Shown in pieces: positions 6,740 to 8,803 of a stretch of DNA of 24,008 nucleotides. The DNA is from a virus. Lineage: Duplodnaviria > Heunggongvirae > Uroviricota > Caudoviricetes. Where the stretch lies: positions 1-24,008 of IMG/VR virus record IMGVR_UViG_2671180360_000013; one strand, written 5' to 3'. The position numbers and the translations under genes are program-made. Positions within the stretch are counted from its first letter, which is position 1. Each line of letters starts with the position of its first letter. The notes beneath the pieces are model-generated. The model ran no database searches. It was not told where the DNA came from and worked only from the letters and a program-made list of their open reading frames with translations.

Positions 6740-6872
6740 TTTTTGGGACTCCTGGCTGATTAAGTATGTCGATAAGGCGTTTCCATCCGTCACGTAATTT
6801 ACGGGTGATTCGTTCAAGTAAAGATTCGGAAGGGCAGCCAGCAACAGGCCACCCTGCAATGGCATATTGCAT
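6708..6872 (-). CDS. cIII: cIII (FtsH/HflB inhibitor)
   Basis: Hand translation of minus strand gives [54 protein letters not shown] then stop, matching recalled lambda cIII; too short for the ORF track. Confidence 0.85.
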   Translation of the reverse strand: MQYAIAGWPVAGCPSESLLERITRKLRDGWKRLIDILNQPGVPKNGSNTYGYPD

Positions 6873-6944
6873 GGTGTGCTCCTTATTTATACATAACGAA
6901 AAACGCCTCGAGTGAAGCGTTATTGGTATGCGGTAAAGCCGCGC

Positions 6945-7267: not shown

Positions 7268-7300
7268 CAAAAAAATTGCCCTCACACTGGAGGGCAAAGA
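7268..7300 (-). terminator. Putative rho-independent terminator (tL-like)
   Basis: Minus-strand hairpin GCCCTCCAGTGTGAGGGC followed by AATTTTTTT, between the 156-aa gene and the ea10-like gene. Confidence 0.4.
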
Positions 7301-7399: not shown

Positions 7400-7870
7400 C
7401 TAATAAAATACCCAATTTTCTGTTTCTTGGTTATGTCCAAAGTTATATTCAATATCTGGTGTTGATGTATCAATATTTTTCATCCCATCAACAAGAGTTG
7501 ATACAACAGCCAAATCTTGTTTTATTCTCATTAAATGGTATTTCTTCCGGCGCAATAAACTTTCAATAGCAAGTTTCTTCGTTGGGAATGCAAAAGATCT
7601 TTCTGCATTTTTTGCTACTTTCTTAATTGCATATCTATTTCTCCTTTGTTTCCATTCCTGTAACCACTGATTTGGTGCTGGTTTAAAATTAACAATCCAA
7701 TGCGCAGGAACCAACCATGCATAATGCTCTGTCTGATGAAAAGCTATATATTGAAGTGCGAATATTTTTATCCCATCTTCTTCAACTGTCGCCTGGAATC
7801 TCCAGAAAACAGGCATTCCATCATGTTCAGTTTCTAATTCAGGAAAAGGTACGCTCCATGATTTTGTCAT
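7400..7870 (-). CDS. Hypothetical 156-aa protein (AT-rich moron at the ral/sieB position)
   Basis: ORF with GAGGTGAG Shine-Dalgarno 5 nt before ATG; AT-rich relative to flanks; co-oriented with the pL operon between ea10 and N; no family recognised. Confidence 0.6.
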   Translation of the reverse strand: MTKSWSVPFPELETEHDGMPVFWRFQATVEEDGIKIFALQYIAFHQTEHYAWLVPAHWIVNFKPAPNQWLQEWKQRRNRYAIKKVAKNAERSFAFPTKKLAIESLLRRKKYHLMRIKQDLAVVSTLVDGMKNIDTSTPDIEYNFGHNQETENWVFY

Positions 7871-7928
7871 ATCTCACCTCAAATAAGTGGTTTGCTGCCT
7901 AATTTCATTTTCTGGCGACCAACACAAG

Positions 7929-8312
7929 TCACCTCGCCGTCAGTTGTTTGGATTTCCGGTAGCCTGCCGCGTAAATGGCTACGTTTGGAAGACATACACC
8001 AGTTTCTGGTTGCTTATGTCCAAACTCATTCGCGTACACAATGGCCGCTCGCTCCAGATTGCGTCTGTATTCTTTCTGTTGCCAGATCACGTCCTGTGCC
8101 ATGAACTTAATTGGCTTAGCGTCTTCTATACGCTCAGGCGTTTCGTGAGTACCTTTAGCCTGAATCTGCGCTCTGCTTAGAGTAGGGCGGTGTAATACTT
8201 CTGAACTTATTGCTTCTTCGCGGGCCAGTACGCCGTTAGCTAATGCCTTTACCTTTAAACGCTCACGACGACGAGAACGTGAATTGCCTTTGAACTGAGT
8301 TCTGCGTGTCAT
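7929..8312 (-). CDS. N: N-like transcription antiterminator, P22 gp24-type (not lambda N)
   Basis: Arg-rich N-terminus (GNSRSRRRERLKVKA) and C-terminus LPNVAIYAAGYRKSKQLTAR resembling recalled P22 gp24 tail; AGGAGG Shine-Dalgarno; first gene downstream of pL. Confidence 0.75.
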   Translation of the reverse strand: MTRRTQFKGNSRSRRRERLKVKALANGVLAREEAISSEVLHRPTLSRAQIQAKGTHETPERIEDAKPIKFMAQDVIWQQKEYRRNLERAAIVYANEFGHKQPETGVCLPNVAIYAAGYRKSKQLTAR

Positions 8313-8477
8313 ATAGACCTCCTGATGAACTTTGGTGGTGTGGTAGGTGGGAGACCCATTTCGACCTGTTTCGGCCTACTTCAATTCGGCAATAGTCCCG
8401 CAGGCCTCGCCGCTTTACGTGCGACATATTCCCGTCCATGAACCCTTCACCACACCCCAAAGTTCACTTTGGTTATT

Positions 8478-8492
8478 GCGCTTTGTCAGCGC
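8478..8492 (-). promoter_or_regulatory. nutL boxB hairpin (P22-type GCGCUGACAAAGCGC)
   Basis: Minus-strand sequence GCGCTGACAAAGCGC in the pL leader upstream of N. Confidence 0.6.
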
Positions 8493-8549
8493 CGTAGATT
8501 CATATTCGAATCGTTGTATATTCACCGCCCTGGTGAGTAGTGCGTCCTG

Positions 8550-8625
8550 CTGATGTGTTTAGTATCACCGCCAGTGGTATTTGTGTCAACACCGCTAGAG
8601 ATAATTCATCACCGCAGATGGTTAT
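8550..8625. promoter_or_regulatory. pL promoter with OL1-OL2-OL3 operators (lambda type)
   Basis: TATCACCGCCAGTGGTA (about 8563-8579), CAACACCGCTAGAGATA (about 8587-8603), ATCACCGCAGATGGTTA (about 8608-8624); leftward -35 TTGACA and -10 GATACT on the minus strand overlapping OL1/OL2. Confidence 0.85.
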
Positions 8626-8778
8626 CTGTATGTTTTTTATATGAATTTATTTTTTGCAGGGGGGCATTGTTTGGTAGGTGAGAGATCAGAATTGCACTGT
8701 TTAGCAAGTTGTATCTATCAATTTTTCAATAAATACAATGAGTTATGTTTTTTTAGGTGGGGGATCGCGAGGCAAAGA

Positions 8779-8803
8779 AAACCCGGCGCTGAGGCCGGGC
8801 TAG
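8779..8803 (-). terminator. Putative rho-independent terminator ending the cI-kinase transcript (timm-like)
   Basis: Minus-strand hairpin CCCGGCCTCAGCGCCGGG followed by TTTTCTTT, between the kinase stop and OL. Confidence 0.5.

What the first reader, a model, noticed from the sequence alone, without database searches (positions are those of the whole stretch)
7929..8492. Mosaic antitermination module: P22-type N and boxB inside a lambda-immunity phage
The operators, cI and cro are lambda-type, but N has the P22 gp24-like C-terminus (LPNVAIYAAGYRKSKQLTAR) and an Arg-rich N-terminus. Both nutL (GCGCTGACAAAGCGC) and nutR (TCGCTGACAAAGCGA) carry the P22-type boxB loop. Recombination joints therefore fall between OL and nutL and between cro and nutR, and the downstream cII is also non-lambda.
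Basis: partly seen in the sequence, partly recalled or inferred. Interest (0 to 1): 0.5.

Follow-up and report, generated by a model that had tools for sequence, protein, structure and literature searches.

The report
H-19B/HK97-type N antiterminator beside lambda immunity
This prophage joins phage lambda's repressor switch to the N antitermination gene and RNA sites of the Shiga-toxin-phage/HK97 type (which share only a P22-like RNA-recognition code), a module combination that is real but common and already described.

Summary
7929-8312(-) encodes a 127-aa N antiterminator with an Arg-rich N-terminus and a C-terminal 20-mer that is 16/20 identical to P22 gp24. The boxB hairpins GCGCUGACAAAGCGC (8478-8492, -) and UCGCUGACAAAGCGA (11940-11954, +) lie just downstream of lambda-type pL and cro. 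cI (235/237), Cro (63/66) and the six operators (0-1 mismatch) are lambda's; cII is not.

The module is not P22's. There is no DNA similarity to P22, and gp24 aligns only at the Arg-rich motif and the tail (39 identities in 91 columns). N is 99.2%, 97.6% and 96.9% identical to N of 933W, HK97 and H-19B. Both nut sites, including their spacer hairpins, match the experimentally studied H-19B sites apart from one base in the nutR boxA.

The joints map to the start of the pL transcript (8539-8553) and the last codons of cro (11893-11895). The same joints recur with five different operator types in 72 IMG/VR loci, of which the lambda type is the commonest (22). The same combination of lambda immunity with this N, these nut sites and this cII is already sequenced and annotated in HK97, mEp234 and HK106. 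This is ordinary, already known lambdoid mosaicism.

The parts
7929..8312 (-). N gene, 127 aa. Arg-rich motif at residues ~9-24 (GNSRSRRRERLKVKAL). The C-terminal 22 aa form a tail shared with P22, HK620 and VT2-Sakai N proteins.
   Evidence: ORF; Pfam PF25694; PHROG 271; 99.2% to 933W N, 97.6% to HK97 N, 96.9% to H-19B N; alignment A2
8325..8344 (-). 3' arm of the long-range N-leader helix. It ends 12 nt before the N start codon and pairs with 8449-8467.
   Evidence: MFE fold of 8300-8554(-), z = -3.56, 0 of 200 shuffles as stable. The same helix is predicted in H-19B, SPN9CC, g341c, SF6, HK620, P22 and lambda, with compensatory differences in its inner segment.
8449..8467 (-). 5' arm of the long-range N-leader helix (GUGAACUUUGGGGUGUGGU).
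8478..8492 (-). nutL boxB, GCGCUGACAAAGCGC: 5-bp stem with a GACAA pentaloop.
   Evidence: Identical to P22 nutL boxB and to H-19B/933W/HK97 nutL. Invariant in 72 of 72 IMG/VR loci. Annotated as nutL boxB in mEp234 record EF120460.
8497..8512 (-). nutL spacer hairpin (GAUUCGAAUAUGAAUC), the H-19B-type 'reducer' dyad.
   Evidence: Fold. The stem is conserved with a different loop in Salmonella phages SPN9CC, g341c and SF6.
8522..8536 (-). Upstream hairpin CACCAGGGCGGUG in the pL leader. There is no canonical boxA in nutL; the 'putative boxA' of the mEp234 annotation maps to about 8536-8544 (CGCACUACU).
8539..8553 (.). Joint J1. The last 933W-specific site is 8538 and the first lambda-specific site is 8554 (8540 is a 933W private SNP). 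The joint lies in the conserved CATCAGCAGGACGC that begins the pL transcript, with +1 inferred at 8554.
   Evidence: Informative-site map. Alignments with four immunity types that diverge exactly here.
8561..8623 (-). Lambda-type pL (TTGACA-17-GATACT, 8589-8561) and operators OL1 8563-8579, OL2 8587-8603, OL3 8607-8623.
8726..8748 (.). Joint J2: lambda-like OL flank to the left, 933W-like Timm/stk cassette to the right.
   Evidence: Timm-like terminator at 8801-8780(-)
8800..10877 (-). 933W-type cargo in the rexAB position: orf54, the stk protein kinase (8967-10013), a RuvC-like 153-aa protein and a DUF3024 protein.
10887..11600 (-). Lambda-type cI, 235/237 identical. Joint J3 lies in its last codons (10887-10914), which lambda, 933W and H-19B share.
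11611..11676 (+). Lambda-type OR3 (11611-11627), OR2 (11634-11650) and OR1 (11658-11674, one mismatch shared with HK97/mEp234), plus pR (11648-11676).
11701..11901 (+). Lambda-type cro, 63/66 identical. Joint J4 lies at 11893-11895, in its last codons.
11909..11917 (+). nutR boxA, CGCUCUUUU. H-19B and 933W have CGCUAUUUU; HK97 and mEp234 match the window.
11924..11935 (+). nutR spacer hairpin GGACAUUCGUCC ('reducer').
   Evidence: identical in H-19B
11940..11954 (+). nutR boxB, UCGCUGACAAAGCGA.
12040..12336 (+). cII of the 933W/HK97 type: 96% identical to those, 35% to lambda cII.
7276..7297 (-). Intrinsic-terminator-like site in the pL operon downstream of N. A second lies at 6902-6921(-). 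These are candidate targets of N-modified polymerase.
   Evidence: pattern match only

Best explanation
The region is the early-left control module of a lambdoid prophage. It consists of an N antiterminator gene of the H-19B/933W/HK97 type with its two cognate nut sites, and it is joined at standard module boundaries to a lambda-type immunity cassette (OL/pL, cI, OR, cro).

Inferred mechanism:
1. After repressor loss, pL (start about 8554) and pR fire.
2. Each nascent transcript folds a boxB hairpin with a GACAA loop (8478-8492 and 11940-11954).
3. The N Arg-rich helix (GNSRSRRRER...) binds boxB with the same recognition code as the P22 N peptide.
4. The central part of N recruits NusA, and the conserved C-terminal tail contacts RNA polymerase.
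5. The modified polymerase reads through the terminators in the pL operon (towards gp17, cIII, gam, bet, exo) and through tR1 and the nin terminators in the pR operon (cII, O, P, Q).
6. A long leader helix (8325-8344 with 8449-8467) brings nutL next to the N ribosome-binding site, as in lambda. There it supports RNase III processing and autoregulation.

The mosaic arose by homologous recombination in short sequences shared by all lambdoid phages: the first ~15 nt of the pL transcript, the Timm region, the 3' end of cI and the 3' end of cro. N/nut specificity and immunity specificity therefore reassort freely.

Shown here: sequence identities, positions, predicted folds and recurrent joints. 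Inferred: binding, antitermination and host-factor needs.
For: - N is 99.2% identical to 933W N, 97.6% to HK97 N and 96.9% to H-19B N.
- The pL leader from +1 through boxB, and the cro-to-cII interval, match H-19B except for one boxA base. H-19B N with H-19B nutR/tR1 is an experimentally used antitermination system (PMC3526286, PMC4499122).
- Both boxB hairpins and both spacer hairpins fold as expected.
- pL and pR are found at the lambda positions.
- 933W-specific sites end at 8538, lambda-specific sites run from 8554 to 8725 and from 10915 to 11893, and 933W-specific sites resume at 11895.
- Loci carrying this N with four or five other immunity types diverge at the same two points.
- HK97, mEp234 and HK106 carry lambda-type cI, cro and operators with this N, these nut sites and this cII. 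The mEp234 record annotates nutL and nutR boxA/boxB.
- Of the 19 positions of the P22 N peptide, 6 are identical here, including Asn1, Arg5, Arg6, Glu8 and Arg9. Those are the residues reported to contact boxB (with the alignment).
- The leader helix is significant (z = -3.56) and is conserved with compensatory changes.
Against: - Nothing here tests function. The prophage could be defective elsewhere.
- The window allele has Val21 in the Arg-rich helix where 933W, HK97 and H-19B have Ala. It occurs in 5 of 71 IMG/VR loci and 486 blocks of the assembly index, so it is not a private lesion, but it is untested.
- nutL has no canonical boxA.
- The terminator calls are pattern matches only.
- The reduced host-factor requirement and the 'reducer' role of the spacer hairpin rest on Neely & Friedman 2000. 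I could confirm only its title and otherwise recall it from memory.
Confidence: 0.93

Rival explanations
1. One reading: the N gene and both nut sites are a P22 (gene 24) module moved by recombination from a P22-like phage into a lambda-immunity phage.
For: - nutL boxB is identical to the P22 nutL boxB 15-mer (PMC11480772).
- The C-terminal 29 aa are 69% identical to gp24.
- The Arg-rich motif is similar.
- Other parts of the window really are P22-like at the DNA level, for example the Q/gene 23 region at 93.9%.
Against: - blastn finds no match to P22 in N, the leader, nutL, nutR or cII.
- There are only 39 identities in 91 aligned columns, and N is 27 aa longer with a centre that does not align.
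- The P22 nutR boxB stem differs, and P22 nut sites have boxA 10-11 nt from boxB with no spacer hairpin.
- Near-identical modules exist in H-19B, 933W and HK97.
Confidence: 0.03
2. N and the nut sites are lambda-type after all.
For: The first ~30 nt of the pL transcript and the leader helix motif CUUUGGGGUGUG resemble lambda. Lambda N shares the RRRER core.
Against: - Lambda N gives only a 48-column, 35% match, E 0.007.
- Lambda boxB is GCCCUGAAGAAGGGC / GCCCUGAAAAAGGGC.
- blastn similarity to lambda stops at 8522 on the left and 11915 on the right.
Confidence: 0.005
3. The module is a decayed remnant in a cryptic prophage: the sequence is recognisable but no longer working.
For: - This is a prophage window with host lacY-like DNA at the left end.
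- Ala21Val lies in the RNA-binding helix.
- One relative, LZHX12, has its antitermination gene annotated as incomplete.
Against: - The ORF is intact and differs at one residue from 933W N.
- The nut sites, promoters and operators are intact.
- A 12.3-kb stretch is 100% identical in another assembly, and the exact protein occurs in 486 index blocks. That fits a circulating, selected allele.
Confidence: 0.04

Closest known systems
Phage H-19B N with nutL/nutR (also 933W and many Stx phages)
   Same: - N is identical at 123 of 127 residues.
- The pL leader from +1 through boxB is identical.
- The cro-to-cII interval is identical, including the spacer dyad and boxB.
- cII and O-P are of the same type.
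   Different: - The immunity region differs: H-19B and 933W have their own cI, cro and operators.
- nutR boxA is CGCUCUUUU here and CGCUAUUUU in H-19B/933W.
- The inner part of the N leader differs from H-19B but equals 933W.
Phages HK97, mEp234 and HK106: wild phages with lambda immunity (GenBank NC_002167, EF120460, EF120461; Degnan et al. 2007, citation confirmed)
   Same: They have the same overall mosaic: lambda-type OL, cI, OR and cro flanked by this N, nutL, nutR (including the boxA C) and this cII. DNA identity is 94-96% over 7868-8799 and 10885-12376.
   Different: - The cargo between Timm and cI differs: hicAB in mEp234 and gp48/gp49 in HK97, against the 933W stk cassette here.
- OL2 and OL3 each differ by one base.
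Phage P22 gene 24 protein with boxB (PDB 1A4T peptide-RNA complex)
   Same: - The nutL boxB 15-mer is identical.
- The Arg-rich motif keeps Asn, Arg-Arg, Glu and Arg at the contact positions.
- The C-terminal 20 aa are 16/20 identical.
   Different: - There is no DNA homology.
- The central region is unrelated and the protein is 27 aa shorter.
- The nutR boxB stem differs.
- boxA lies close to boxB with no spacer hairpin.
Phage lambda N with nutL/nutR
   Same: - The gene position is the same: first gene of the pL operon.
- boxB is a 5-bp stem with a pentaloop.
- The long leader helix is present.
- The promoter and operator context is the same.
   Different: - The boxB loop is GAAGA/GAAAA.
- The N sequence is essentially unrelated outside the RRRER core.
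- boxA is required in lambda and lies 8-9 nt from boxB (boxA data in PMC2800207).

Membership tests
Lambdoid N/nut processive antitermination system | [quoted passage not shown] | tested here: met
   ORF 7929-8312(-) lies 242 nt downstream of the inferred pL start; Pfam PF25694 at 4.8e-15; PHROG 271
Lambdoid N/nut processive antitermination system | A boxB hairpin in each early transcript, downstream of pL and of cro, in the transcribed orientation | tested here: met
   8478-8492(-) and 11940-11954(+) each fold as a 5-bp stem with a pentaloop
Lambdoid N/nut processive antitermination system | A boxA element (consensus CGCUCUUUA) 5' of boxB | tested here: inconclusive
   nutR has CGCUCUUUU at 11909-11917, 8 of 9 positions matching, 22 nt from boxB. 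nutL has no canonical boxA, the same as H-19B.
Lambdoid N/nut processive antitermination system | Terminators downstream that must be read through | tested here: inconclusive
   Terminator-like sites lie at 7297-7276(-) and 6921-6902(-) (pattern only). The nutR-cII interval equals the H-19B nutR/tR1 template used as a Rho-dependent terminator (PMC3526286).
Lambdoid N/nut processive antitermination system | N- and NusA-dependent read-through in vivo or in vitro | not testable with these tools
   Needs a reporter or transcription assay.
H-19B/933W/HK97-type N-nut module | N protein near-identical over its full length | tested here: met
   99.2%, 97.6% and 96.9% identity over 127 aa
H-19B/933W/HK97-type N-nut module | nutL and nutR with a GACAA-loop boxB and a dyad-symmetric spacer hairpin | tested here: met
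   Identical to H-19B apart from one boxA base; the hairpins fold
P22 gene 24 / nut module | Full-length orthology of N to gp24, with DNA homology | tested here: not met
   No blastn match. There are 39 identities in 91 aligned columns and only the ends align.
P22 gene 24 / nut module | boxB sequence and loop | tested here: met
   The nutL 15-mer is identical to P22 nutL. nutR shares the loop and 13 of 15 bases with P22 nutL, but not with P22 nutR.
P22 gene 24 / nut module | nut architecture: canonical boxA about 10 nt upstream of boxB, with no spacer hairpin | tested here: not met
   The nutR spacer is 22 nt and contains a hairpin. nutL has no boxA and has two extra hairpins.
Lambda immunity group (imm-lambda) | Lambda cI, Cro and the six 17-bp operators | tested here: met
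   cI 235/237 and Cro 63/66; operators show 0-1 mismatch
Lambda immunity group (imm-lambda) | Homoimmunity with lambda in a plating test | not testable with these tools
   Needs a superinfection test.

The most novel reading that the evidence does not exclude
Within one homologous N/nutL scaffold, the RNA-recognition pair (the Arg-rich motif plus boxB) is itself swapped as a sub-module. The scaffold keeps the same leader, the same spacer hairpin, the same N body and the same tail.

- GNSRSRRRER pairs with a GACAA pentaloop: this window, H-19B and HK97, with the same code as P22.
- GTSRARRRER pairs with GCUCCGUCAACGAGC: Salmonella phage SPN9CC.
- GSAAGRRRERR pairs with a U-A-closed GAAA tetraloop: g341c and SF6.

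The Asn-to-Thr change accompanies the change at the second loop base. If real, this is a natural graded series for dissecting peptide-RNA specificity. It would also mean that N specificity reassorts at a finer scale than the gene.
Probability: 0.25. Interest if true: 0.35.

Novelty: already known. Interest (0 to 1): 0.12.

Why it matters
It matters little as a discovery. It is a clean example of the modular construction of lambdoid phages. Immunity specificity (operators, cI, cro) and antitermination specificity (N, nutL, nutR) are separate cassettes. They are exchanged at short conserved linkers, here the first bases of the pL transcript and the last codons of cro. Practically, it tells an annotator two things: this prophage should be immune to lambda, and it should regulate its early genes like H-19B, 933W and HK97. 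Labelling it 'P22-type' would mislead, because only the boxB-recognition code and the RNA-polymerase-binding tail are shared with P22.

Tried and rejected
- Rfam gathering-threshold scan of the whole window. It has no nut/boxB family and returned only the cIII thermometer.
- PDB sequence search with N. There was no meaningful hit. The 1A4T peptide is shorter than the 20-residue minimum of the library or too short to score.
- Degnan et al. 2007 could not be read. Its citation and main point were confirmed through PMC8585504 and through the GenBank annotation of EF120460.
- Neely & Friedman 2000 is not held. Only its title was confirmed.
- The search for related loci with a diverse N alignment returned only N proteins at least 98% identical. 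It served for counting immunity partners, not for a broad covariation table of Arg-rich motif against boxB. That table rests on six hand-picked phages.
- A strict pattern (5-bp stem, G...A pentaloop) missed the variant boxBs, which were then found by eye.
- A formal pair count on alignment A1 was dropped, because the GAAA-tetraloop boxBs are one base shorter and MAFFT did not place the gap.
- A Nun-like exclusion protein was considered and rejected. The gene has cognate nut sites in its own genome and an N-type tail.
- The + strand ORFs inside 7887-8180 were considered and rejected as antisense artefacts of the N gene.

Full report
WHAT IS THERE. The window is a lambdoid prophage with a host lacY-like gene at its left end. 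ORF 7929-8312 on the minus strand encodes a 127-aa protein. It matches Pfam N_peptide at 4.8e-15 and PHROG 271 'anti-termination protein N-like'. Upstream on the same strand lies an exact lambda pL (TTGACA-17-GATACT, 8589-8561) with OL1-OL3. By comparison with lambda, the transcript should start at 8554. The 242-nt leader contains, in order:
- a hairpin at 8536-8522;
- a second hairpin at 8512-8497;
- boxB at 8492-8478 (GCGCUGACAAAGCGC, 5-bp stem with a GACAA loop);
- a long-range helix (8467-8449 pairing with 8344-8325) that closes a ~100-nt domain and ends 12 nt before the N start codon.

To the right, lambda-type cI (235/237), OR3-OR1, pR and cro (63/66) are followed by a boxA-like CGCUCUUUU (11909-11917), a hairpin GGACAUUCGUCC (11924-11935) and a second boxB, UCGCUGACAAAGCGA (11940-11954). 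A cII follows that is 96% identical to 933W/HK97 cII and 35% to lambda cII.

WHAT TYPE OF N IT IS. The resemblance is real but partial.
- The nutL boxB is the same 15-mer as P22 nutL. It is the RNA of the solved P22 N-peptide complex 1A4T, as quoted in PMC11480772.
- The last 20 residues are 16/20 identical to gp24.
- The Arg-rich motif keeps the Asn, Arg-Arg, Glu and Arg positions of the P22 peptide.
- There is no nucleotide similarity to P22 anywhere in N, its leader, nutL, nutR or cII.
- A global alignment with gp24 has 39 identities in 91 columns, all at the two ends.
- P22 nutR has a different boxB stem, and P22 nut sites have a canonical boxA 10-11 nt from boxB with no intervening hairpin.

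By contrast, N is 99.2% identical to 933W N, 97.6% to HK97 N and 96.9% to H-19B N. The leader from +1 through boxB, and the whole cro-to-cII interval, are identical to H-19B except for one boxA base. H-19B N with H-19B nutR/tR1 is a standard experimental antitermination system (PMC3526286 and PMC4499122). [quoted passage not shown] From memory, it reports that NusB, S10 and boxA are dispensable and that the spacer dyad acts as a 'reducer' stem. The correct label is therefore H-19B/933W/HK97-type N-nut module. It uses the P22 boxB-recognition code and carries the tail that P22, HK620, VT2-Sakai and other N proteins share.

WHERE THE JOINTS ARE. The window, lambda and 933W were aligned three ways and classified by informative sites.
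- 933W-specific sites run up to 8538.
- Lambda-specific sites run from 8554 to 8725.
- 933W-specific sites run from 8749 to 10914.
- Lambda-specific sites run from 10915 to 11893.
- 933W-specific sites resume from 11895 onward.

Site 8540 is a private 933W SNP, since H-19B matches the window there. Relative to a 933W-like backbone, two patches are lambda's: OL/pL and cI-OR-cro. The cargo between them is 933W's (orf54, the stk kinase, a RuvC-like protein and a DUF3024 protein) rather than lambda's rexAB. The four joints lie in short sequences shared by all these phages: CATCAGCAGGACGC at the start of the pL transcript, the Timm region, the last codons of cI and the last codons of cro.

THE JOINTS ARE RECURRENT AND THE COMBINATION IS COMMON. 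The exact N protein of the window is listed in 486 blocks of the assembly index. Contigs carrying it show at least four different cI/cro pairs. In alignments, loci with lambda-type, 933W-type, H-19B-type and a fourth type of immunity are identical to the window from pL +1 leftward and from the cro stop rightward. They are unrelated in between. Among 72 IMG/VR loci with N at least 98% identical, the operator region upstream of +1 falls into five types: lambda 22, 933W 20, H-19B 18, a fourth type 9 and a fifth type 3. boxB is invariant in all 72.

Sequenced phages HK97 (NC_002167), mEp234 and HK106 (EF120460, EF120461) have lambda-type cI, cro and operators together with this N, nutL, nutR and cII. 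The mEp234 record annotates nutL and nutR boxA/boxB, the operators and a 'boundary sequence'. These records belong to Degnan et al. [quoted passage not shown] PMC8585504 cites that paper for the cI-to-N interval being a hotspot of mosaic diversity. One assembly (GCA_001285005.1) is 100% identical to the window over 12.3 kb. The finding is thus a correct description of something ordinary and already published.

HOW IT MOST LIKELY WORKS. This part is inferred from identity to characterised systems. After derepression, pL and pR transcripts fold their boxB hairpins. The N Arg-rich helix binds them, NusA is recruited, and the C-terminal tail modifies RNA polymerase so that it reads through two sets of terminators. 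In the left operon, terminator-like sites lie at 7297-7276 and 6921-6902. In the right operon they are tR1 and the nin terminators. The leader helix is predicted with z = -3.56, and 0 of 200 shuffles were as stable. It is also predicted in H-19B, SPN9CC, g341c, SF6, HK620, P22 and lambda, with an outer CUUUGG/CCAAAG segment and an inner segment that differs with compensation: GGUGUGGU/ACCACACC here, GGUGAAUGCAG/CUGUAUUCACC in H-19B, GAAAGCG/CGCUUUC in SF6. From memory, in lambda this helix is the RNase III site through which N translation is regulated. I infer the same role here.

A FINER MOSAIC, NOTED BUT NOT PROVEN. Salmonella phages SPN9CC, g341c and SF6 have N proteins 85%, 70% and 64% identical by tblastn. 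Their pL leaders are collinear with the window's, with the same upstream hairpin, spacer-hairpin stem and post-boxB sequence. Only the Arg-rich motif and boxB are replaced.
- SPN9CC has GTSRARRRER with GCUCCGUCAACGAGC.
- g341c and SF6 have GSAAGRRRERR with CGGCU-GAAA-AGCCG.
- VT2-Sakai (37%) has GTAASRRRARR with UGGCU-GAAA-AGCCA and a canonical boxA.

This fits the Arg-rich motif and boxB co-varying as a recognition pair, and it is the most novel reading left open. It rests on six phages and no binding data.

VERDICT. It is not a P22 module. It is the well-known H-19B/933W/HK97 N-nut cassette, and its pairing with lambda immunity is common and documented. Novelty: already known. Interest: low.

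Noticed in passing
window 8800-10877 (-): The slot between Timm and cI holds rexAB in lambda. Here it holds the 933W cassette: orf54, the stk eukaryotic-like protein kinase, a RuvC-like 153-aa protein and a DUF3024 protein, under lambda immunity. The kinase matches PADLOC PD-T4-6 and mad6, and DUF3024 matches PDC-S43. Only 3 of 5426 complete E. coli genomes cover at least 80% of 7900-12400 in one place, though several draft assemblies have the layout.
   Followed up: partly
window 11913 (nutR boxA, 11909-11917): boxA is CGCUCUUUU here, in HK97 and mEp234, and in some loci with 933W-type or H-19B-type immunity. It is CGCUAUUUU in H-19B, 933W and L013. The variable base corresponds to lambda boxA16 (C38A), which weakens NusB:NusE binding and abolishes lambda N action (PMC2800207). 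This natural polymorphism might tune NusB/E use.
   Followed up: partly
window 8325-8344 and 8449-8467 (-): A long-range helix in the N leader brings nutL close to the N ribosome-binding site. It is predicted in eight lambdoid N leaders, with compensatory changes in its inner segment.
   Followed up: yes
L016 (SPN9CC), L017 (g341c), L018 (SF6), about 480-700 of each locus: The pL leaders and N bodies are homologous, but the Arg-rich motif and boxB have been swapped together: a GUCAA variant in SPN9CC and a GAAA tetraloop in g341c and SF6. In SPN9CC an Asn-to-Thr change accompanies the loop change from GACAA to GUCAA.
   Followed up: partly
window 21013-21711 (+): The late antiterminator Q (207 aa, Pfam Antiterm) and the sequence just after it are truly P22-type at the DNA level: 93.9% identity to P22 37184-37884, which holds gene 23 and pR'/qut. 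The window does therefore carry a P22-type antitermination module, but it is the late one.
   Followed up: partly
window 16846-18699 (-): A 617-aa ORF lies on the opposite strand inside the nin region. It has no Pfam or PADLOC match and falls in PHROG 9230 (unknown function), so it looks like inserted cargo of unknown role.
   Followed up: partly
window 6827-6885 (-): This is the Rfam Lambda_thermo element (the cIII RNA thermometer) at 88.5 bits. It is the only Rfam family found in the window.
   Followed up: no
window 8587-8623 and 11658-11674: OL2 (C to T), OL3 (T to C) and OR1 (G to A) each differ from lambda by one base. The OR1 change is shared with HK97, mEp234, LZHX12 and L009. The OL2 and OL3 changes are shared only with LZHX12 and L009.
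   Followed up: partly
window 21874-24008 (+): H-19B carries stx1 downstream of Q. Here a 252-aa protein of unknown function (PHROG 1521) is followed by sequence 99% identical to phage 434 (TciB/SASA esterase region). There are no stx genes and no tRNA genes.
   Followed up: partly
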